The notes under the pieces were generated by a model, which was given only the letters and a program-made list of their open reading frames with translations, did no database searches and had not been told where the DNA came from. DNA of 64,000 nucleotides from Dendrobates tinctorius. Its lineage: Eukaryota. This document shows positions 7,150 through 22,610 of this stretch, piece after piece. The stretch spans positions 12,648,001-12,712,000 of the forward strand of contig NW_027361696.1 of NCBI RefSeq assembly GCF_039654945.1. The letters run 5' to 3'. The position numbers and the translations under genes are program-made. Every line of letters begins with the position of its first letter. The stretch's first letter is position 1.

Positions 7150-8716
7150 TACACCTGGGGAGGCAGCAAACAGACAGGCTCATTAGCACGGGCAAGATGA
7201 TGGCCAGCTGTGTCCGATGTGACCCTCAGACAGCCACAAGGTAAATTTCAGGCATCCGTATATATATGACAGATGTGCGTTGTGTGTGGGATATTCTCAG
7301 TACAGACGTGTGGTGTTTTCAGTACAGATGTGTGCGTCGTGTTCTCAGTATGGACGTGTGGTTTATGCAGCGTTCTCGGTACAGACTTGCAATGTGAACG
7401 GCGTACTCCGTACAGACGTGCAGTGTGTGCGGCTTCGCTGTACAGACATGTGGTGTGAGCGGCGTTTCGGTACAGATGTGGGGGGGGTGTGGCGTTTTTC
7501 GTACAGACGTGTGGTGTGTGAGCGGTGTTCTCAGTACAGACGTGCTGTGCACGTGGCGTTCAGTACAGCTGTGCGGTGTGTGCAGTGTTCTCAGTACAGA
7601 TGTGCAGTATTAGACGTGTGTCCATATGGCGTTCTCCGTACAGATGTGCTGTGTGTGCGCGCGGCGACCTCAGTACAGATGTGCGGTGTGTGCAGCCTTC
7701 TCAGTACAGATGTGGTGTGCACGGTGTTCACCTGGGCAGGCAGCAAACAGAGAGGCTCATTGCCACGATCATGGGCAAGAAGACGGCCAGCCGTGTCCGA
7801 TGTGACCCTCAGACGACCACTAGGTAACTTTCAGGCATACGTTATAGGTATGAAGGATAGATGTGCGTTGTGTGTGGGACATTCTCAGTACAGACATGCG
7901 GTGTATGTGGTGTTCTCGGTACAAACGTGCGGTGTGTCTGTGGCATTCTCCATACAGATGTAGGGTGGGAGCGGTGTTCTCTACAGACGTGCTTGTTATG
8001 TGTGGTGTTCTCCATACAGACCTGCTGTGTCTGTGCGACGTCCTCGGTACAGATGTGGGGTGTACGTGCCGTTCTTGGTACAGACATGCGGTGTATATGG
8101 CATTCTCAGTACAAACATGCAATTTGTGCGGCGTACTCTGAAAAGACGTGCGGTGTATGTGGCGTTCTCCATACAGATGTAGGGTGGGAGCGGTGTTCTC
8201 TACAGACGTGCTTGTTATGTGTGGAGTTCTCCATACAGACCTGCTGTGTGTGTGCGACGTCCTCGGTACTGATGTTCTTGGTACAGACATGCGGTGTATA
8301 TGGCATTCTCAGTACAAACATGCAATTTGAGCGGCGTACTCTGTACAGACGTGCGGTGTATGTGGCGTTCTCCATACAGCTGTGTGCAGTGTTCTCAGTA
8401 CAGATGTGCAGTGTGAGCGATGTTCTCATTACAGAGGTGTGCGTGTCTGGCGTTCTCCGTACAGACATGCTGTGTGTGTGTGTGCACGGCGTTCTCAGTA
8501 CAGACGTGTGGTGTGTGCAGCCTTCTCAGTACAGACATGTGGGATGTACAGTGTGTGCGATGTTCACCTGGGCAGGCAGAAAACAGAGGCTCATCGCCAC
8601 GATCATGAGCAAGAAGACGGCCAGCCGTGTCTGATGTGCCCCCGAGACGACCACTAGGTAAATTTCAGGCATTATATATATATAAGGACAGATGTGCGGT
8701 GTGTACAGCGTTCTCA
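7150..8716. repeat. GT-rich minisatellite (about 30-36-bp unit gtacagacgtgcggtgtgtgtggcgttctca), left half, with higher-order blocks
   Basis: Dozens of degenerate units. An approximately 120-bp non-satellite block recurs at about 7152, 7727 and 8564. Confidence 0.9.
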
Positions 8717-10810: not shown

Positions 10811-11543
10811 TGTGAAGAACAATATTCAGATGTACGGGACATCTTGTTCTCAAAGACTCCATCTTTGTGCTTGCGACGCCATCTTGTTATTTACAAGATA
10901 AATTCTGTAACTAGGGTAAAGTTCGCGGCTGTTAGGCCTGTTTCACACTTCCGTTTTTTCAAATCCGTCAAAATCCGTTGTTTTCCGTAAAAAAACGGAT
11001 CCGCCATTTTTTGCAGGATCCGTTTTTTTTGTCCCATAGACTTCCATTACGGTTACCGCGGATCCGTCAAAAAAACGGATCCGTTTTTAAAAAAACGGAT
11101 CCGTTGGCATCAGTTTCCGTCAAAAAAACGGAAACGGATCCGTTTGGCGGACACAAAAACGGAAGTGTGAAACAGGCCTTATGAAACCAGACTGTTCCAG
11201 TCTGAACAAGATATAAGATATGAGACCCTGATGAATGTGCTATTGTTCTACTCTCTATGCTACGTAGATACGGACATATATGTAGTTTCCGGTTTTCTTG
11301 CAATACTATTGGCTTATAAAGTAAATGTGTTACGACGATGCCATTGGTAGTTGTGTACTTTGTATAATTAAGCAAAATACTATAAAAGAGGTGACATAAA
11401 CGGGGTAAGCGATCTGCCTTGATCCTCCCATACAGAGGCACACGTCTCCGTCTGGTCATTCTCAGTTGCTAGCAACACCCTGTGGATTAATTTGGAGATC
11501 TCTTGGTCAACCGTGAAGGGTCACTCTAGATCCTCCCTCGACA
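10811..11543 (+). repeat. ERV 5' LTR (interrupted by a MITE)
   Basis: TGTGAAG...CTCGACA with TATAAAA at 11381-11387. By-eye alignment to the 3' LTR gives 16 substitutions and one 3-bp indel over about 489 bp once the MITE is removed. Confidence 0.95.
10935..11178. mobile_element. 244-bp PIF/Harbinger-type MITE inserted in the 5' LTR
   Basis: TIRs GGCCTGTTTCACACTTCCGTTTT / AAAACGGAAGTGTGAAACAGGCC with 3-bp TSD TTA on both sides. The 3' LTR shows the empty site (ggctgTTAtgaaacc). Confidence 0.92.
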
Positions 11544-11545
11544 GT

Positions 11546-11563
11546 TGGCTGCCCAACGTGGGG
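11546..11563 (+). promoter_or_regulatory. Primer-binding site, tRNA-Lys(CUU)-like
   Basis: TGGCTGCCCAACGTGGGG, 2 nt after the LTR. It matches the tRNA-Lys1,2 PBS TGGCGCCCAACGTGGGG with one inserted T. Confidence 0.85.
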
Positions 11564-12405
11564 ACCCGAATAGGGACGCCTCTGCCCCCAGAGGACAACA
11601 AGACAAAGGACGCTCGGACCGAACACAGGCGCTGGAAAATTGGGACTGATCATCCCCCACGACAACCACGGTAAGTTGGCAGTTAAACTGTTCAGACTGA
11701 CAGTTTGGTGTCGTTTTCCTGTGCTTGTTACTGCAAAGAGGATCTGAGGTTTGTCCTTGATGGTGGGATGATTCTTGGATGGAATCATATAGAGGTGCAG
11801 ACCCGTTGGGGGCCCAGTGTTCGAACCGTACCTCATAAGGGACAGACACCGCAGACTGACCAGTGATTGTGATTCTATAGTCAAAATATCCTGAAATCCT
11901 GATCACTGTTAAAATCAGGCGTGGTGATGTGATCGAAGATTGGGTAGGATACGTAACTCAGGTATATATAGATATATATAACCCGAGGTGTCCGGAGGGA
12001 TAGTCTGAGACACCCTCCTCCTTTCACTGAGTACCGCGTTGGAATTTTGGGCATCCCAGACGGGGATAGACCCAGTAGAACAGACTGTACGGCCGCTCCA
12101 GTACTGTGCACAACCGAAGTAAGGTTATTTAGCTCTAAAGGAGAGAATCATGTTTCCGTGGAAGGAAAAGAAGAATTCCGTGGCTTGGCACATGAATTGT
12201 GTGATGAAGGTTATATAGAAGTGGAAAAGGAAGTGAATTCTGATTGTTTCTGTTACTGCTATCTCGAAGAAGGAAAATTGTCAATTACTATGACAAGCAC
12301 TTGATGTTTTGTTGTGCAAGAAAGTGACTGAGAGTAATAAGAAAGTGGCTGAGGGTAATGTGCCAGAAAGACAACTAAAAATGATGATCTGAAACAAGGG
12401 GTCTC

Positions 12406-13278
12406 TGTCATGAACTCATTTTCTGCTCCACCAGTTGAGAGTTCCCCTTCCGTTCTCCCTCTGGTGGTGACAGGAGGTAGTGCGGTTGGTTTAAGTGGTA
12501 GTGATCTGCCACCTGATGAGGAAGATAACGATTGGATCTCTAGAGTATCAGACTGGATATAAGACAGCCGACGCCCTATCCGGGTGCTGGTGATTCAGTC
12601 TGCTTCTCAGGTCCTGGACTTCAGCTCTCTTCCAGTCTTCTCAAGTTAAGTTTGTTTTTTGATAATGTTCACACTTGCTCTTGTAGGTCAATTCAGTTTT
12701 TTGTGTAATCAGCCTGCCCCTGCTGGGGCTATGCTGAAATTCCACTCCTATTAATCAGTATTTGCCAATCTGCTTTTTGTCCCTTATTAGATTGGCCTCT
12801 TTTTTGCTCTGTCTCAGAATATTTCAGAGTGCTGATATAGGTTTAGAAGTCTAGTGACTTCAGGGTTAATTTTGCTATCAGAAGTGTTGGACAATATTTT
12901 TGTAGGGTTTTTTTGGCAGATTGCAGACAGTGTCTTTCTTTTTCTGTCCTTTTTAGTTAGCCGGGTCCCATCGTTTGCTCAGCCTATTTTCCTGCCTTTG
13001 TTTGTATTTTCATCTTGTTTCACTGTCAATACATGTGGGGGGCTGTCTTTCCTTTGGGGTCTGCTCTGGGGCAGCTAGTTTTCCTCTTTTCCTGCTTTAG
13101 GCTTATGCAGTTCTCCGGTTGTGACGAGGCGTCTAGGACCAACGTAGGAACGCTCCACGACTGCTGCTAGTTGTGCGGGTAAGATCAGGGATCTGCAATC
13201 TGCATAGTTACCAACTTCTCTGGTTTTCTGAGACTTAGCTTGTTGTCTTTTTTTTTCCTCGGTTTCCCATTCATAACA
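12406..13278. mobile_element. Solo LTR (873 bp) of an LTR retrotransposon inserted in ERV gag
   Basis: Termini TGTCATGAA...TTCATAACA with TSD ggtctc (12400-12405 / 13279-13284). The gag frame is restored on removal. Confidence 0.88.
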
Positions 13279-13420
13279 GGTCTCCCTGCTAGATGATAAG
13301 GTCCCTCCCCAGGAAATCAAACCTCTCCTCCCGACTGTAAGCTCTGTGCCCCTTAACCCCAGGGCGCCAATATATCCTGGGCTGCCAAAACCCAGTACGC
13401 CCCCATCCTATGATCCTGCT

Positions 13421-13498
13421 GGGTGGATTTGTGCCGTATGCGGAGTTACTAATCCTCAGTGGAGAGAGGTCTGTTACAATTGTGGAGCAAGGAGACCT
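13421..13498 (+). other. RanBP2-type (zf-RanBP) C4 zinc finger within gag
   Basis: W-x-C-x2-C-x3-N-x6-C-x2-C pattern: GWICAVCGVTNPQWREVCYNCGARRP. Confidence 0.88.
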
Positions 13499-13710
13499 GG
13501 AGTCGCAGCCCCCACCTTTCCCTTGCTAAACGCTGATGGTACCTATTATCAGCCACCGCCAGCACCAGTCCCTGCTATGCCTAATATTGCTAGTGGTTAT
13601 GAGTATCCACCCCCTCCTACTTTAGTCACTCGGGTCAGACAGGATACACAGAGGAGATAGAAAATTTTCAGGAAATGTATTCCAATGTTATTCCTAGACC
13701 CCACCGTCAT

Positions 13711-14243
13711 GATGTGCTCTTTAGGATAGAGAGAGGGGATCTCGCGAAGCAGCACTTTTGGGCCATAGTAAATGCTGCGAATAATCAACTCCACCATGCT
13801 GGAGGACTGGCCGCAAAAATTTCACAGAAAGGCGGACCCATGATACAGGAAGAATCTTATTCGTATATACAAACTTATGGCCAGGTAGAAACAGGACAGG
13901 TCGCAGCAACCAGAGCAGGATAGCTGCCGTGTCAATATGTAATACATGCAGGGGGACCACGATATGATCCTACCAACATTCCTAGGTCTCAACAATTGCT
14001 TACTGAGGCTGCCCAGAATGCAATCCTGTATGCTTTCTCTGTCCCCCCGGTACGATGCCTCAACGTACAGTGGCCATACCATTAATCTCTGCCGGTATCT
14101 TTCAATATTCCAGGAAGGATGCCGCCATGGTCATAGTATCAGCAATAGAGCGGTGTATATAGGAAAACCCCATAAAATTGGAGGAGGTCCGATTTGTCCT
14201 CGACAGCAGCCTAACGGCCTATCAGGCAATACAATCTAACTGT
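13711..14243 (+). pseudogene. Macrodomain (MacroD / PARP9-PARP14 macro-1-like ADP-ribose binding or hydrolase domain) within gag
   Basis: FRIERGDL...AIVNAANNQLHHAGGLAAKISQKGGPMIQEES...YGQVETGQVAATRAG*LPCQYVIHAGGPRY, then a frameshift near 14045-14063, then RTVAIPLISAGIFQYS...KLEEVRFVLD. All macro motifs appear in order. Stops are at 13921 and 14160. Confidence 0.93.
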
Positions 14244-15062
14244 AACATAGTCTCCTGCCCCACTTCCGCAGCAGATGCCTATTGTGCCCATATTACCGCC
14301 ACCTCCTCCCGCCCCCGAGTCAGTAATATCCGAATTTGAAGAGGATGATGTGGAAACTACTCCTGACAGGCCAAAGTATATTCCCTTCACCCCATCGCAA
14401 ATAGACACCCTTTGCAATCAATTACCCGATCCAGAGACTTCCCCCATGGCCTTCTACAGGCAAATGGCAGCAAATCGAGAGATTTATTCCACTCCCCGAA
14501 GAGATCTATTACACATACTTCAAGTAAAAGCTGGGGAGGGGTATTTTCCAATTATTGAGGTGTTGATTTCTGCAATGCTTTAAAGGTTTGGGCACAAGAT
14601 AGACTAGCAGATCAAGCTATCTCTCTCACAGATGACACCCAGGACAAGGGGGAGACTGCCGAGAAGTTCTTTGGGCGTCTTATGGTGGTATTTAAAGATC
14701 TGGGATTCTCATTGTAAAATAAAGCCCACACACACCTTTTTGTGGCAGCTTTGATGTCCGGTCTTAAACCCGAATTGAAAGAGGCGATAATGTCAGTCAG
14801 ACCTGACGTCAAGAATTCCACTCCGGACGATGCATTGAAAGTAATAAAAAGTTTTCAGAAGAATTTAACCCGTTCTGTATCAGCAGGGAAACTGAAAAGC
14901 AAGCCAGCAGCTGCAGTTGTTCCAGCTCCCTCTCCCACCACCACCGCAAGCACACATCTTGTTCCTTATCAGTGGCACACACAGCAGCCTCTAGCTTCTG
15001 CCCTCCAACCATACACAAATTACAGTCATCAACCTTGCCAATGCCTTCTTTAGCATTCCGTT

Positions 15063-16036
15063 TGTTTGGCATCGTGTTCCTGCAGCGGTTCAACAGGAAT
15101 CCAGAGCCTCACATTCTGCAGTCTCCCATTATCTTTCGACCGCAGAGGACATTGCTCAGCAATCCTGGCATCCCAGACGCTCTGCCCAGACCTGCTCTGT
15201 GGGGTTGGCTATTGCTGCCACCTTTGGATCAACAATGGCAATGCAGGCTGCTCAGCAGCAAATCACTCCAGAGGCTAAGTCCCTCCGTAGCTCTACTGAG
15301 CATCCTCACGAGATGATCTCCCATTGGAGATCGGGAGCCACATGTCCAGGTCCTTCTCCAGATTTGATTGGTGCATCTCAGGGATCTGGAAGCTTCCGGA
15401 AGGTCCTGGCTATAAAAGGTTCGCATGGCCGCTCGGCCATGTGCTAGTATAGTCTCTAGTTGCTACTGTGTGAATGATGATGGATGCATGAACCTGCTAA
15501 TGACTCATTAAGATCCCCTCCCTCTGATATTACGAGTGTGTATAGGGACTTAGCTTTAGAGTCAGTGCCAGCCAGTGGCAATCTATAGCCACAATAAGCA
15601 TCTACACAGTACTAGCGTCCGACAGTGCGCCCCCTCTTGGGCATTGTCGACTAGCGGCAGTGTTTGTCGCCGCGCTGCAGTCTGCAGCTCCTTTTGACGT
15701 CCGCAGTTGCGACGCCGCACGCATGGTAGGTCTAGACGGATGCTGACTCTCTGCCTAGGGCTCAGCTCCTGTGACCATATACTGTGCGTGCACTTCTCTG
15801 AGACCTGTGACGCTAACAGGCTCAGCCCTTTTGTGTTTTGCACTTAAGGCATCTCTGTGAGTAAAACAGAGATCGCTCAGCGCACCTGGGTGACGTTCAA
15901 CCCGTGTGCGTTATACCGCCATATTGTACGTCCGCCATCAGCTAGCAGCAGTGTTAACACCTTCTGCATGGTGGACCCCGGGCGGCGAACGCACTTTACG
16001 TTATTTTATATTTAGTGCGTTCCGCCGTCCTTAACA
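15063..16036. mobile_element. Solo LTR (974 bp) inserted in the ERV RT
   Basis: Termini TGTTTGG...CCTTAACA with 5-bp TSD ccgtt (15058-15062 / 16037-16041). It splits the RT motif FFSIP|LHPDCQ. Confidence 0.85.
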
Positions 16037-16082: not shown

Positions 16083-16433
16083 TCCAGAAATAGAAGGCGA
16101 GCACCATCACAATAGTCCACACATCCGAACCATCATACAGTACGTGTATCAAAGAGACGCAGACGGCAATACAACTGTTTTACCCTTAGGTGCACATTCA
16201 TGGAAAATAAGCTAATCCACATAGCAAAAAATAGTAGAAAAGAACGGCACTCCCCGGGTAGTGTAGTCAAGGCTTTATTGTAACCACATGTAACCTGTGG
16301 AAGCGCCTTTGCAGCGCGAAACGATCGTCGTTGCTATCTCCTTTTTGCACCCGTTCTCCCGCTGATATGCTTTTACAATAAAGCCTTGACTACACTACCC
16401 GGTGAGTGCCGCTCATTTCTACTATTTTTTGCT
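16083..16433 (+). mobile_element. 351-bp Penelope-type mini-element with inverted pseudo-LTR arms and a hammerhead ribozyme
   Basis: 14-bp TSD attcacttatcagg (16069-16082 / 16434-16447). An approximately 62-bp inverted repeat spans 16221-16283 and 16373-16435. AATAAA is at 16377-16382, and the hammerhead lies between the arms. Confidence 0.85.
16290..16334 (+). ncRNA. Type I minimal hammerhead ribozyme (one core substitution)
   Basis: Stem I GUAAC/GUUGC; core CUGUGGA (canonical CUGANGA) plus an extra A; stem II GCGC-cuuugca-GCGC; GAAA; palindromic stem III ACGAUCGU. The cleavage triplet is GUC, with a predicted cut after 16329. Confidence 0.8.
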
Positions 16434-19160
16434 ATTCACTTATCAGGGATGACAGTTAACATGGACAGTTATGCCACAAGGGGCCCAAAACAGTCCCAAC
16501 CAGTTTGCAAAAAACATGAGCGAGGGTCTCTTGCCCTGGCAGTTAGATCACCCCCAGGTCACGCTGCTTCAGTATGTGGATGATCTTTTGTTGTGTGCAC
16601 GAACGGAGCAGGAAGCCATTGTTGCCACTGTCAGCCTTCTCAAGTATCTGGCAGATCTGAACTGTCGGGTTTCGGCCTCAAAACTTCAGTTCTGCCTTGG
16701 TCAAGTGATATTCTTGGGTCACTGTCTCCTTCAGGATGTCAGACACCTCACAGAAGAAAGAAAAATAGCTATCAGCTCCCTTTCTTTCCCAAAAGATGAA
16801 GCTGAACTCCAGAGTTTTCTTGAACTATGTACTTATTGTTGTCAGTGGATACCGGATGCATCCCGCCTAATGCAACCTCTTTACAATGCTTTGAAAGACG
16901 TCATAATAAGCTACAAGGAAAGATCACCGGTTTGTATAGAAAGCCTCCATTGCGCTTTCTCTGAATTGAAGCGGCTTATTGCTTCCGTCCCTGCCTTGGG
17001 CATCCGGGACTATGCGCGACCATTCCATTTGTATGTGTCTGAGAATGAAGGACACGCAGCAGGGGTACTTACACAATCACATGGCAACAGGCAACGACCA
17101 GTGGGCTATTATTCGGCCCACCTCGACCCTGTGGCCCGAGCATCACCAAGCTGCATGAGGGCAGTTCACGCCACTCACTTGTTGCTTGACAAGACTGCAG
17201 ACATAATTCTTGGACATGAAACGCACATTATTGTCCCGCATGACATTGCAGCAATACTGACACTTCAGCAACCAAGACATTTGACTGTGCAATGACACTT
17301 ACGGCTGCAGTGTTCACTCCTTTTGCCTGACTATGTCAAGTTACATCGCTGTACTACAATCAACACCGCTACTTTACTGCCGGTCCCCAAGAAAGATGGC
17401 AGTGATGAGGATTTTCTCCAACATGGTTGTTCCCAACTTCTGACTGAAGAAACAGCTACTCCGCCAAATGTCAGTGAGAATCCACTTCCAAATCCCGATC
17501 TGGTGTTATACACGGATGGTTCAAGATATGCTGATGAGTTTGGTAGATTCCACACGGGATATGCTGTTACCACAGAGGACACTGTAGTGCACACAGCTGC
17601 ACTCCCGCCCTCACAGTCAGCACAAGAAGCAGAACTCCAGGCTCTGTCTACTGCATGTACTTTGGCCAAGAACAGACGGGCTAATATATACACGGACTCA
17701 CGGTATGTATTTGGTATTGCTCACAATTTTGGGGCCCTATGGGCCAATCGAGGGTTTATTACTACTGCCGGAACCCCAGTGAAAAATGATGAAGCTGTTA
17801 AAACCCTCCTGGATTCGATCAAATTACCTACTCAGGTGGCTATTATCAAAGTTAAGGCGCACGGTCCTAAGAACAGTCCACAGACTGTTGGCAACGCATT
17901 TATGGATATGCAAGCAAAAGCCGCTGTTCTTTTACCCGTTGAACCAACCATACCAACTATAGTGACCACAAGCTCTCAGCGTAAACAGTTACAAGAAGCA
18001 TTCACCCTACAAGAACCTGATGATCTACAACAGACTGAAGTTTTCTGTTGGACCCCGCTTAATGACGATGCAGTGAATGTCTCCAAAGGAAGAGGTGAAG
18101 CAATGGAAGACTGATGGGGCACGTATGGATATGGTCTCTGGAAAAAGGACCAACTCGTGTTTCTCCCTAAGCGGATGTACCCTGCTATTGCCACATGGCC
18201 ACATGGGCCTACACATCGAGGAAAGAATCAGGCCCTCGCACTAGTGCAAAAATTCTACTGGGCCCCGGGAATTTCCACAGTTTTCACAGTACTCAACCAT
18301 GCCTGTAATATCTGTCAGACCTGCAATCCCGGTCAACTTCAACGTGTACCCCCGAAGCATCTTGCTAAGCCCGAGCATCCAGGTGGACCATATTACGTTA
18401 CCTAAGTCTGGAAGGTATGAATACTGTTTGGTTGTTGTTGACATGTTCTCCAGTTGGCCAGACGCATTCCCTGTTACCAACATGACTGCAAAAACCACAG
18501 CGAAGAAACTGGTGATGGAAGTCATATGCAGATATGGGGTTCCAAAAGTTGTTGAAAGTGATCAAGGTCCGGCCTTTTCTGCTTATGTGTACCAAGAAGT
18601 TCTGACAATGCTTGGATCCACTGTAGCCCTCTATACTCCGTACCATCCACAATCCAGTGGGAAAGTTAAGAGGCACACTGAAGGGACAATTGACCAAAAT
18701 GATGCAGGAGACTACAGCTCCATGGCCAGAGCTCCTACCCATTGTACTATACCACATTTGTACTACCCCTATTGCAAAACATGGTCTCTCTCCATATGAG
18801 ATATTGTTTGGTGCCAGGCCCCCAGTTGCAAATTTTCAGCCTCAGCAGTTATCAGAAGAAACTGACCGTGCTGTTCAATATTTTATTGAGCTTAGTAAAA
18901 ATCTTGCTAACACCCATGATCTAGTTTCTTCTTCTCTTCCAGATTCAGCAGAAACCGACACCTGTCATAACCTGAAGCCTGGTGATTTGGTAGTTGTGAA
19001 AAGGCATGTCAGAAAGCATGGACTAGAACCCTTGTATGACGGTCTCTATCAAGTCCTCCTCATCACACCTATATCAGTGAAACTAGAATGAAGACCGACT
19101 TGGATCCACGCATCGCACTGCAAGCTGGTTAAACATGCCAAAAGCAAATAAAGGGGCATA

Positions 19161-19495
19161 ATGTTTTGGTTTTTCGCATTTCCCATATTATTATTGGTAA
19201 CCGCATGGGACAATTCACCCCGCCCTTCAGGGAGACCACAAATAGTACAGATGAGTGTGGCCAATAAAGCTTGTTATACATTGCTGCCTGTATCCTTGTT
19301 GTATATGTGATACTAAAACTCGTTCTTTGGTGTATTTCTGTATGTATTAGGAAATTCTGCACTAGGACAACTAATGATGATACCAAAGGCGTCGTCAACC
19401 CTGCTCTTCTCTACACCGATCTCAAAAGGTCACTTGATGAAGATGTTGAAGTCAAGCGCATGGCTACCATCAAAAGATCTCCACCACTGTCATAA
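19161..19495 (+). pseudogene. env: env remnant: signal peptide joined out of frame to TM anchor and cytoplasmic tail
   Basis: MFWFFAFPILLLVTAWD starts at 19161, just after the pol stop. Hydrophobic LLYIAACILVVYVILKLVLWCISVCIRK plus a tail follows in another frame (19271-19495). The ectodomain is absent. Confidence 0.7.
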
Positions 19496-19654
19496 AAAAT
19501 TGTTATTCGTAAATTGCAGCATCCAGGGGGGATGGGTGATGCCATGACTAATAACATGGCATCAGCCATGTGAAGACCAGTACCCCTCAAGCTTATAGCT
19601 TAGGAGAGTACCTCTGATGCTGCATATTAGTTAACAAAATTTATCTAGGGGGAT

Positions 19655-20143
19655 TGTGAAGTACAGTATTCAGATGCACGGGACATCTTGTTCTCAAAGA
19701 ATCCATTTTTGTGCTTGCGACGCCATCTTGTTGTTTACAAGATAAATTCTGCAACTAGGGTAAAGTTTACGGCTGTTATGAAACCAGACTGTTCCAGTCT
19801 GAACAAGATATAAGATATTTGACCCTGATGAATGTGCTATTGTTCTACTCTCTATGCTACGTAGATACGGACATATATGTAGTTTCTGGTTTTCTTGCAA
19901 TACTATTGGCTTTTAAAGTAAATGTGTTACGACGATGCCATTGGTAGTTGTGTACTTTGTATAATTAAGCAAAATACTATAAAAGAGGTGACATAATAAA
20001 CGGGGTTAGCGATCTGCCTTGATCCTCCCATACAGAGACACACGTCTCCGTCTGGTCATTCTCAGTTGCTAGCAACACCCTGTGGATTAATTTGGAGATC
20101 ACTTGGTCAACCGTGAAGGGTCACTCTAGATCCTCCCTCGACA
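19655..20143 (+). repeat. ERV 3' LTR (489 bp)
   Basis: TGTGAAG...CTCGACA preceded by AGGGGGAT. TATAAAA is at 19978-19984 and AATAAA at 19995-20000. Confidence 0.95.
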
Positions 20144-20551
20144 ACCAAATCCCATATTAAGTGCCAAATCAATAGACGTAAGAGGAATATACACAGACGC
20201 TTCAAAAAGTATCTAAAAGGGATGTAGACACATGACCTGCAAGGGAGAATCCATTGAGAAAGCGAGATAACAAGTTATCTCAAACTAGCCAAAGTATCCA
20301 TATTAAAGAAAACTAAGAGTTGTTTGTAAAACCCTGTAAATAATAAGTCCTCATTTAGACCCTTAGATGTGCGACTTTGAAGTTCGTAGATGCATTTGGA
20401 TTCACAGCGGAGAAGATTAGTAATAGTCCCTCCCACCCCCCCCCCCCGATATTAGTTTGCACGCTTTCAAGGCCCATGACCTTAAAACGAGATGTACGGC
20501 CATGATGTACATCCAAAAAGTGGGCAGCCACTGAACATAACGTTTTGTTCC
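20144..20551 (-). mobile_element. Penelope-like element: GIY-YIG endonuclease C-terminus, 5'-truncated
   Basis: Minus-strand translation gives SVAAHFLDVHHGRTSRFKVMGLE, then after a frameshift in the G run NLLRCESKCIYELQSRTSKGLNED. This is typical of the PLE ORF end (HF...H, LLxxExxWIxxL...GLN). Confidence 0.8.
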
Positions 20552-22610
20552 GTGCAGCGTTCTCAGTAAAGATGTGCTGTGTGTGCAGCATTCTCAGTAC
20601 AGACGTGCAGTGTGTGCGGCATTCTTAGTACAGACATACGGTGTAAGCGGCGTTCTCCATACAGATGTGCGGTGTGCATGTTCTCAGTACAGACGTACAG
20701 TGTGTGCGGGGTTCCCAGTACAGACGTGCGGTGTATGCGGCATTATCAGTACAGACGTGCGGTGTATGCGGCATTCTCAGTACAGACGTGCGGTATACGC
20801 GGCGTTCTCAGTACAGATGTGCAATGTGAGCGGCGTACTCAGTAGAGACGTGCTGTGTATGAGCTTTGTTCTCCATACACACGTGCTGTGTATGTGTGGT
20901 GTTCTCCTTACAGATATGCGGTATGTGTGGCATACTCCGTACAGACCAGTGGTGTGTGCGTGGTGTTCTCAGTACAGACATGCAGTGTGTGTGTAGCATT
21001 CTCGGTACAGACGTGCAGCGTTCTCGGTACAGATGTGCAGTGTGTGTGGCGTTCATACAGATGTGTGGTGTGAGCGTTGTTCTCTGTTCAGACATGCGGA
21101 GTTCTCTGTATAGATGTGCAGTGTGTGTGCATTATTAGCACAGACGTGAGTGGTGTTCTCTGTACAGTTGTGCGGTGACTGCGGCGTTCTCAGTGTGTGT
21201 GTAGCGTTCTCAGTACAGACATGCGGTGTATGAGGCGTTCTTAGTACAGACGTGCAGTGTGAGCGGTGTTTTCAGTAAGAAGTGCGGTGTATTTGGTGTG
21301 TGCAGTGTTCTCAGTACAAATGTGCGGTGAGCAGCGTTCTCAGTACAGACGTGCAGTGTACGCGTCGTTTTCAGTACAGATGTGCAGTGCGTGCGAACAG
21401 AAGTGCGGTGTGTGTGTGGCGTTCTCCGAACAGAAGTGCGGTGTGTGTGTGGCGTTCTCCGAACAGAAGTGCGGTGTGTGTGTGGCGTTCTCCGAACAGA
21501 AGTGCGGTGTGTGTGTGGCGTTCTCCGTACAGACATGTGGTATGTGCATGCTGTTCTCAGTACAGACATGCAGTGAGTGTGTGTGTGGCATTCTCAGTAC
21601 AGACGTGTGGAGGTGTGTGGTGTTCTCCATACAGATGTGCAGTGTTCTTTGCACAGACGTTCAGTGTGTGTGCAGCGTTCTCAGAACAAATGTGCGGTGT
21701 GAGCAGCGTTCTCCGTACAGACGTGTGGTATGTGCGGCGTTCACAGTACAAACATGCGGTGTGCACGGTGTTCTCCATACAGACGTGCAGTGTGCGTTTG
21801 ACGTTCTCCATACAGATTTGCGGTGTGAGCGGTGTTCTCTGTACAGATGTGCACTGTGAGCAGCATTCTCTGTACAGACGTGCGATGTGTGTGCAGCGTT
21901 CTCAGCACAGATGTGCAGTGTGTGTGGCATTCTCTGTACAGATGTGCAGTGTGTGTGTGGCATTCTCTGTACAGATGTGCAGTGTGTGTGTGACATTCTC
22001 TGTACAGATGTGCAGTGTGTGTGTGGCATTCACTGTACAGATGTGCGATGGGAGCTGTGTTCTCTGTACAGACGTGCGGTGTGTGAAACGTTCTCATTAC
22101 AGACGTGCAGTGTATGCGGCGTTTTCAGTACAGACATGCAATGTGAGCTGCATACTCAGTACAGACATGCAGTGTGAGTGGTGTTCTCAGTACAGACGTG
22201 TGATGTGTGTGCGGTGTTCTCCGTACAGACGTGGCGTTCACGGCGTTCTCCATACAGATGTGCAATGTGAGCGGCATACTCAGTACAGACACATGGTGTG
22301 CACGGTGTTCTCCATACAGACGTGCAGTGTGTGTGGCGTTCTCCATACAGATGTGCGGTGTTATCTGTACAGACGTGCGGTGTGTGAAACGTTCTCACTA
22401 CAGACGTGCAGTGTGTGCGGCGTTTTCAGTACAGACGTGCAATGTGAGCTGCATACTCAGTACAGACATGCGGTGTGAGTGGTGTTCTCAGTACAGAAGT
22501 GTGATGTGTGTGCGGTGGTCTCTGTACAGACGTGTGGTGTGTTGGACTTTCTCAGTACAGATGTGCCGTGTATGCGGCATTCTCTGTGTATAGACGTGCG
22601 GTGTGCATTG
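20552..22610. repeat. GT-rich minisatellite, right half (same unit as 7150-8716)
   Basis: Continuous gtacagacgtgcggtgtgtgtggcgttctc-type units, with locally perfect 33-bp copies at about 21395-21525. Confidence 0.92.

What the first reader, a model, noticed from the sequence alone, without database searches (positions are those of the whole stretch)
13711..14243. Full-length PARP9/PARP14-like macrodomain embedded in a retroviral Gag: candidate virion-packaged anti-ADP-ribosylation module
Seen: between the Gag late domains and capsid (the p12-like position) the ERV encodes a macro fold with all motifs in order: GD, AIVNAAN, HAGGLA, GGxxIQEES, YGxVxxG, AG*LPCxxVIHAxGPR, TVAIPLISAGIFQY, LEEVRFV. 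It is broken only by two stops and one frameshift, has no poly(A) or TSD of its own, and is collinear with gag. Established: MacroD-type domains of coronaviruses, alphaviruses and HEV remove interferon-induced mono-ADP-ribosylation, and macrodomain 1 of PARP9/PARP14 belongs to the same hydrolase class. From memory, and needing a check, the IQEES...YG.V..G..A.T.AG.LPC and TVAIP..S.GIFQ segments look closest to vertebrate PARP9 macro-1. Inference: an ancestral amphibian retrovirus captured this host domain into Gag, so it would be packaged at structural-protein stoichiometry and delivered at entry. Macro-like domains have, as I recall, been noted in a few fish ERVs, so the novelty is the Gag-embedded, zinc-finger-linked architecture rather than mere presence.
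Basis: partly seen in the sequence, partly recalled or inferred. Interest (0 to 1): 0.92.

Follow-up and report, generated by a model that had tools for sequence, protein, structure and literature searches.

The report
Macrodomain built into frog retrovirus Gag
A group of frog endogenous retroviruses carries, inside the protein that builds the virus particle, an enzyme-like module of the kind coronaviruses use to erase the host's antiviral ADP-ribose tags; the copy in this window is dead, but its relatives kept the module under selection.

Summary
Real. The window holds a decayed class I provirus whose gag carries a macrodomain (13,711-14,243; two stops, one frameshift). In the same genome 52 of 57 sister copies have zinc finger, macro and capsid collinear, and 9 have them in one open frame. 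One natural 848-codon frame reads matrix-PPPY-RanBP2 finger-Macro-capsid-CCHC. The same layout occurs in two more families here, in the GenBank Gag of Rhinella marina ERV, and in Ascaphus and Anomaloglossus, at 31-45% domain identity (family B-RMERV 78%). Changes shared between copies show purifying selection (omega 0.31, against 0.91 for private changes), as in matrix and capsid. A model (pLDDT 94.5) matches PARP14/PARP9 macrodomain 1, and the hydrolase residues are kept in all 7 lineages compared. Corrections: the donor is unresolved. The viral domains form one old clade outside crown PARP9 and PARP14, so a recent PARP9 capture is not shown. The zinc finger also occurs in macro-less sister Gags. 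Most likely an ADP-ribose eraser made, and probably packaged, at Gag levels; activity, packaging and expression are untested. Macro ORFs in fish ERVs are on record, but I found no description of the in-Gag form; two key papers could not be read.

The parts
10811..11543 (+). 5' LTR (TG...CA), interrupted by a 247-bp inverted-repeat insertion at 10,932-11,178
   Evidence: alignment with the 3' LTR; 16 mismatches in 486 aligned sites, 3.3%
11546..11563 (+). primer-binding site, tRNA-Lys-like (tRNA assignment recalled, not tested)
   Evidence: TGGCTGCCCAACGTGGGG two bases after the LTR end
12150..12398 (+). 5' remnant of gag (matrix), internally deleted; followed by a non-proviral insertion to about 13,282
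   Evidence: blastn against four sister proviruses
13400..13411 (+). PPxY-type late motif (PPSY here, PPPY in sisters); a second proline run YPPPP lies at 13,604-13,618
13424..13501 (+). RanBP2-type zinc finger in Gag
   Evidence: Pfam PF00641 E 1.2e-6
13711..14243 (+). macrodomain of the PARP9/PARP14 macro-1 (MacroD) type inside gag; two stops and one frameshift in this copy
   Evidence: Pfam Macro; open sister domain: PDB hits to PARP14/PARP9 macro-1, AlphaFold model and Foldseek
14380..14929 (+). capsid region of gag, broken; NC, protease and the first half of RT are deleted after it
   Evidence: collinear with sisters; the homologous region of P0274 resembles Gag_p30 clusters, score 0.91
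16425..19212 (+). pol remnant (RT C-half, RNase H, integrase, MLV-type integrase C-terminus), broken, running into the start of the env region
   Evidence: Pfam; sister Pol closest to MLV RT, E 1e-140; blastn
19647..20143 (+). polypurine tract (19,647-19,654) and 3' LTR (19,655-20,143); no matching target-site duplication seen

Best explanation
An ancestor of one branch of anuran epsilon-like (RMERV-related) retroviruses took a single macro-1-type macrodomain into gag, between the late-domain/zinc-finger region and capsid. SHOWN: it is encoded in one open frame with Gag, folds in prediction as a macro-1 domain, keeps the ADP-ribose-binding and hydrolase residues, and was under purifying selection while the viruses replicated. 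INFERRED: it is made one-to-one with Gag, enters particles with Gag, is probably cut free by the viral protease like p12, and binds and removes mono-ADP-ribose put on viral or host factors by interferon-induced PARPs, either at assembly in the producer cell or after entry. The window copy itself is a dead relic.
For: Natural open 848-codon frame matrix-PPPY-ZnF-Macro(E 1.9e-26)-CA-CCHC, then stop, then Pol. 52 of 57 distinct copies collinear, 9 of these 52 in one open frame over ZnF-macro-capsid start. Same layout in RMERV Gag AWS20966.1, two Ascaphus proteins, one Anomaloglossus protein and family B here. Variants shared by 3 or more copies: macro 27 N/27 S, omega 0.31; private variants 168 N/58 S, omega 0.91; Fisher p 9e-4; MA 0.31/0.89, CA 0.23/0.82; the contrast holds at thresholds 2, 3, 5 and two transition weights. 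Adenine Asp 57 of 57, second Asn of NAAN 55 of 57, His 57 of 57, loop-1 Gly 57 of 57, loop-2 Phe 52 of 57. All 7 lineages aligned keep Asp, Asn, loop-1 Gly and hydrophobic-aromatic loop 2, the criteria that picked out the active PARP9/14 macro-1 in PMC10221186 (section 3.1). Model pLDDT 94.5; top Foldseek hits PARP14 macro-1 (TM 0.89-0.90) and PARP9 macro-1 (TM 0.87). One clade of viral macros (89/83); one change of the macro label on capsid (83/96) and RT (77/88) trees.
Against: No activity, binding, cleavage or packaging datum. Within the family the macro is no more constrained than matrix, and the linkers also show omega 0.42-0.64, so part of the signal is general Gag constraint. The copies were picked by similarity or by long open frames, which favours conserved ones. 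Sister families D and F spread without any macro (23 of the 30 top capsid loci with flanks had no macro hit, 3 more are truncated or other copies counted among them), so it is dispensable. 8 of 57 copies share Ile-to-Asn in loop 2, and family C has changed the GP motif. The fold model leaned on an alignment of known macros. The donor is unresolved.
Confidence: 0.55

Rival explanations
1. One reading: the domain binds ADP-ribosylated host proteins or chromatin and, with the RanBP2 finger, does a p12-like job, tying the incoming complex to chromatin or to an ADP-ribose-rich compartment.
For: It occupies the position of MLV p12, a chromatin tether (recalled). Binding and catalytic residues overlap, so conservation cannot separate the two roles. 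Viral and host macros have repeatedly lost activity (PMC10221186, passages). Family C and 8 family-A copies deviate in loop residues.
Against: The Asn, loop-1 Gly and loop-2 aromatic, which are poorly kept in reader-only macro-2/3 (PMC10221186, passages), are kept in all 7 lineages, and the clade groups with macro-1, not macro-2/3.
Confidence: 0.22
2. The hydrolase acts on nucleic acid or small metabolites rather than proteins: it removes ADP-ribose from ends of viral RNA, primer tRNA or reverse transcripts, or clears O-acetyl-ADP-ribose or ADP-ribose-phosphate.
For: Position in an RNA-packaging polyprotein beside a finger type that can bind single-stranded RNA (title of a reference in 10.1101/2024.07.05.601823). 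YmdB/MacroD deacetylases are the next-best structural hits. Macro-1 activity on ADP-ribosylated nucleic acids is recalled.
Against: No direct evidence; the same site would also act on proteins, so this refines rather than replaces the best explanation.
Confidence: 0.13
3. A tolerated passenger: a folded spacer kept only because Gag must stay in frame and well folded.
For: Macro-less sisters spread well; linkers are also under purifying selection.
Against: Active-site residues are kept across lineages whose domains are only 31-45% identical and whose flanking linkers do not align; a 170-residue insert would be cheap to lose.
Confidence: 0.07
4. A host PARP9/14 fragment or retrocopy that fell into this one provirus, or an assembly artefact.
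For: RefSeq names one such ERV piece 'PARP9-like' (P0228).
Against: 650 candidates, all 150 scored at 81-100% identity; the host PARP9 and two PARP14 genes lie elsewhere (contig C181) and are only 34-38% identical; same layout in other frogs.
Confidence: 0.01

Closest known systems
Rhinella marina endogenous retrovirus (RMERV) Gag, GenBank AWS20966.1, and the anuran epsilon-like RMERV clade (PMC12690878)
   Same: Same Gag layout with matrix, PPPY, RanBP2 finger, Macro, capsid and CCHC; 35% identical to the window's family over Gag.
   Different: The record is named only 'gag protein'. The word macro as a domain does not occur in the main text or supplement of PMC12690878 or in the main text of the Anura ERV preprint. 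The RMERV paper itself could not be read.
Macro-domain ORFs of teleost epsilon-like ERVs (Basta et al. 2009, cited in PMC4977317)
   Same: Macrodomain carried by a class I endogenous retrovirus of an anamniote.
   Different: The review calls them 'additional open reading frames'; here the domain is fused inside Gag. The primary paper was not held and no fish ERV macro sequence was obtained, so shared origin and position are untested.
Viral macrodomains of Coronaviridae, Togaviridae, Matonaviridae, Hepeviridae (Mac1/X domain; PMC7232374)
   Same: MacroD-type pocket: adenine Asp, conserved Asn, loop-1 Gly, GIF/GIY loop 2.
   Different: Those are parts of non-structural replicase proteins of (+)RNA viruses and are distant in sequence (E about 1e-7 to 1e-8 against 1e-27 for PARP9 macro-1); this one is in a structural polyprotein of a retrovirus.
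Macrodomain 1 of vertebrate PARP9 and PARP14 (active ADP-ribosylhydrolases; PMC10221186)
   Same: Best sequence and structure hits; same catalytic signature; groups with macro-1 rather than macro-2/3.
   Different: Only 30-39% identical; a separate clade outside crown PARP9 (94/94) and crown vertebrate PARP14 (100/99); single domain, no PARP or KH context.

Membership tests
Macrodomain fold (Pfam PF01661) | Profile match above cut-off and alpha/beta/alpha macro fold | tested here: met
   74 bits on the window piece, 93 on an open sister, cut-off 22; model pLDDT 94.5, TM 0.87-0.90 to solved macros
MacroD-type / macro-1 ADP-ribosylhydrolases | Asn/Ser and Gly flanking loop 1; hydrophobic plus aromatic residue in loop 2 (PMC10221186); adenine-binding Asp (PMC7232374) | tested here: met
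   49-57 of 57 copies per residue; 7 of 7 lineages, one with Met at the hydrophobic position
MacroD-type / macro-1 ADP-ribosylhydrolases | Measured ADP-ribose binding and de-MARylation | not testable with these tools
   needs biochemistry
PARP9 macro-1 lineage (as donor) | Nests within or is sister to vertebrate PARP9 macro-1 | tested here: inconclusive
   sister to all PARP9 at 71/71; frog-PARP9 sister not rejected (p 0.275), vertebrate-PARP14 sister not rejected (p 0.289), frog-PARP14 sister p 0.025
Class I (gamma/epsilon-like) ERV | LTR-PBS-gag-stop-pro/pol in frame, YVDD, MLV-type integrase C-terminus, TLV-coat env | tested here: met
Anuran RMERV clade of epsilon-like ERVs | Pol phylogeny with named references (RMERV, Xen1, XTERV, WDSV) | not tested
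   no reference Pol in hand; only Gag and capsid homology to RMERV shown
Known viral macrodomains (Mac1/X) | Located in a non-structural replicase polyprotein of a (+)RNA virus | tested here: not met
   located in Gag; works-like claim unaffected
Fish ERV macro ORFs (Basta 2009) | Separate additional ORF; common origin | tested here: inconclusive
   here it is fused in Gag; primary paper and sequences unavailable

The most novel reading that the evidence does not exclude
An undescribed retroviral counter-defence: a catalytically active macro-1 ADP-ribosylhydrolase carried as a domain of Gag, captured once long ago, kept by several anuran retrovirus lineages including very recently active ones, and delivered in the particle so that it erases interferon-induced ADP-ribosylation before any viral gene is expressed. 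Its gain may be tied to loss of the N-terminal myristoylation glycine of matrix.
Probability: 0.3. Interest if true: 0.88.

Novelty: new variant of a known kind. Interest (0 to 1): 0.72.

Why it matters
Viral macrodomains are known as replicase parts of (+)RNA viruses. A selected, catalytically intact-looking one inside a retroviral structural protein would extend the ADP-ribosylation arms race to retroviruses and imply that antiviral MARylation hits assembly, the core or reverse transcription. Natural macro-bearing and macro-less sister lineages in one genome give a ready comparison, and a deposited open Gag (RMERV) makes the enzyme claim testable at once as an isolated domain. It also warns that such ERV pieces are annotated as 'PARP9-like' host genes.

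Tried and rejected
Single-sequence AlphaFold failed (pLDDT 38.8); redone with an alignment. A capsid-only protein search found nothing at E<=0.01 among 848 candidates. A viral-contig scan gave 158 pattern matches and no relative. Pfam Gag_p30 did not ring in the genome or the controls, so no gamma-type outgroup was found; Ty3/gypsy RT had to serve as a distant root. The Atlas feature search with RMERV Gag gave no usable hit. Expression: no RNA holder listed. Laying 4 of 24 listed runs on a sister copy gave only 227 and 542 reads at mostly 88-95% identity in two polyA runs of another coded organism, with no reads over matrix or capsid; dense cover came only from contigs whose RNA status is a guess. 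That is inconclusive for Gag expression. Earlier scan notes: three look-ups, nothing on this. Literature: 10 of 10 searches used; none returned a description of a macrodomain inside Gag. Basta 2009, the RMERV paper and the XTERV1 paper were not held. The 108-row careful tree did not finish and the quick tree was used. Rejected: host retrocopy; a PARP9-specific recent capture; the zinc finger as a macro-linked novelty.

Full report
OBSERVATION. Pfam Macro matches the first piece at E 1.1e-20 with its stop read as X and the second at 0.0017. The domain has stops at 13,921-13,923 and 14,160-14,162 and one frameshift near 14,045. It lies in a provirus with LTRs at 10,811-11,543 and 19,655-20,143 (16 mismatches in 486 sites), a primer-binding site, broken gag, and RT/RNase H/integrase remnants. 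This copy has lost part of matrix, NC, protease, half of RT and most of env, and has taken later insertions. It cannot make the protein.

FAMILY. A search of the window's genome (6.36 Gb) with the first half of the domain gave 650 candidates; all 150 scored matched at 81-100% identity. I fetched 20 of those with the longest frames. One has a natural 848-codon frame: matrix, PPPY, RanBP2 finger, Macro (E 1.9e-26), capsid, CCHC knuckle, then a stop and Pol in the same frame. Of 66 stored loci covering the macro I dropped 9 as repeat fetches or near-duplicates, leaving 57. In these, 52 have finger, macro and capsid collinear, 9 of the 52 in one open frame, and 25 of 57 macros have no stop or frameshift. 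Pol is closest to MLV RT and a sister env matches TLV_coat, so this is a class I element.

WIDER RANGE. A search of 1.84 billion representatives (best 150 listed) returned Gag proteins with the same layout: RMERV Gag (GenBank AWS20966.1) and two from Ascaphus truei. A profile search added Anomaloglossus baeobatrachus; Ranitomeya imitator has pieces of the window's family. In the window's genome a PARP9 query found two more macro-bearing families, B (very young) and C (older). A capsid query (4,685 candidates, 150 scored) found families D and F with the same matrix and capsid but no macro: 26 of the 30 loci returned had no macro hit within about 1.5 kb, and 4 had one; some of the 26 are truncated copies such as L103. 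D keeps the RanBP2 finger. On a capsid tree of 12 rows the macro label changes once (83/96; one truncated row was labelled by its capsid family). On an RT tree of 11 rows rooted on Ty3/gypsy the macro families form one side (77/88; one row without a YxDD match was left out). Both fit a single gain, with weak support.

SELECTION. Proviruses decay neutrally after insertion, so I separated changes private to one copy from changes shared by three or more. Macro: shared 27 non-synonymous/27 synonymous (omega 0.31), private 168/58 (0.91), Fisher p 9e-4. Matrix: 0.31 against 0.89. Capsid: 0.23 against 0.82. With thresholds 2, 3, 5 and two transition weights the macro's shared omega is 0.23-0.53 and its private omega 0.96-1.18. 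Against my reading: the linkers also show 0.42-0.64, so the macro stands out little from Gag in general, and the copies were chosen by similarity. The stronger sign of function is across lineages: domains 31-45% identical (B and RMERV 78%), with unalignable flanks, keep the adenine Asp, the second Asn of NxxN, a loop-1 Gly and the hydrophobic-aromatic pair of loop 2 in 7 of 7. Within the family these residues are kept in 57, 55, 57, 49 and 52 of 57 copies.

STRUCTURE AND ORIGIN. An open sister domain hits PARP9 macro-1 (98 bits) and PARP14 macro-1 (89-91 bits) first in the PDB, then YmdB/MacroD, with coronavirus Mac1 far lower. A model with a 25-row alignment has pLDDT 94.5 and matches PARP14 macro-1 (TM 0.89-0.90) and PARP9 macro-1 (0.87). 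In a 108-row quick tree the viral domains group with macro-1, not macro-2/3. In a 41-row careful tree they form one clade (89/83) outside crown PARP9 (94/94, which includes named frog, salamander and caecilian sequences) and crown vertebrate PARP14 (100/99). They are sister to all PARP9 at only 71/71. AU tests: with frog PARP9 p 0.275, with vertebrate PARP14 p 0.289, with frog PARP14 p 0.025. For the window's family, mean identity is 38.6% to PARP9, 35.3% to vertebrate PARP14 and 41.8% to four single-macro proteins of unnamed environmental origin. The donor is therefore a macro-1-type gene that these data cannot name; the capture is old or masked by fast viral evolution.

MECHANISM. Shown: in-frame Gag domain, macro-1 fold in prediction, intact pocket, purifying selection. 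From established knowledge: residues of this pattern marked the active hydrolases among human macroPARP domains (PMC10221186, section 3.1 and passages read), and (+)RNA-virus macrodomains counter interferon-linked ADP-ribosylation (PMC7232374, passages read). Inferred: synthesis one-to-one with Gag, packaging, release by protease, and removal of host mono-ADP-ribose at assembly or after entry (0.55). Rivals: a p12-like reader/tether (0.22), activity on nucleic acid or metabolites (0.13), a passenger (0.07). Expression of gag could not be shown.

WHAT IS KNOWN. PMC4977317 (passages read) says fish epsilon-like ERVs sometimes have additional ORFs for macro domain proteins, citing Basta 2009, which was not held. 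PMC12690878 (passages, one section and a supplement search) describes an anuran RMERV clade and has no mention of a macro domain. The Anura ERV preprint (passages; supplements closed) reports RanBP2 fingers in one Gag and has no 'macro'. PMC6001957 (passages and supplement search), PMC8672886 and PMC9723728 have none either. Ten full-text searches (listings seen) found no description of a macro inside Gag. The RMERV paper, Basta 2009, subscription journals and repeat libraries were out of reach and could hold one; I put that chance at about one in four (judgement).

VERDICT. A real, selected, multi-lineage architecture: a new variant of a known kind (viral macrodomain) in a new setting (retroviral structural polyprotein). 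Interest 0.72.

Noticed in passing
L077-L081, L093-L095 (family B); many rows: A second, very young macro-bearing family: seven copies differ by 6-13 of 2,595 gag bases; its macro is 78% identical to that of RMERV Gag, which suggests recent spread between frog lineages.
   Followed up: partly
L127-L129, L131 (family D); L133-L134 (family F): Sister families with the same matrix and capsid but no macro; D has a clear RanBP2 finger. Both start with Met-Gly, while the macro-bearing Gags seen (A, B, C, RMERV, two Ascaphus, Anomaloglossus) lack Gly2 at their apparent start. This is one change on the tree, so not independent evidence.
   Followed up: partly
L082-L088, L092, L130 (family C): An older, more decayed macro-bearing family with a changed pocket (H-A-M-T-P for H-A-V-G-P; GVGIF loop); a possible shift to reader-only.
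   Followed up: partly
L031:2680-5679: A deleted copy fuses gag just after the macro in frame to the end of protease and RT, giving a 1,000-codon frame; the 408 LTR bases compared are 99.8% identical.
   Followed up: no
L048:3631-3810: In two polyA RNA runs of one coded organism (two studies), a piece of about 180 bases of the macro is read with the same foreign sequence on both sides: an ERV macro fragment inside another transcript.
   Followed up: no
P0228 (XP_075208031.1), P0002, P0122, P0138: Annotation pipelines call pieces of these Gags 'PARP9-like' or 'Macro domain-containing' host proteins; P0002 joins the Gag piece to an endonuclease-like sequence.
   Followed up: partly
window 10,932-11,178; 12,399-13,282; 15,063-16,023; 16,221-16,435: Later insertions into the provirus, including two inverted-repeat (MITE-like) elements; the flanks show no target-site duplication.
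   Followed up: no
G000:C181:1,960,675-2,156,050 (L051-L057): Host PARP9 and two tandem PARP14 paralogues, all with an intact macro-1 signature.
   Followed up: partly
window 7,300-8,700 and 20,500-22,600; 27,800-64,000: Large arrays of 28-86-bp minisatellites flank the provirus and fill much of the window.
   Followed up: no
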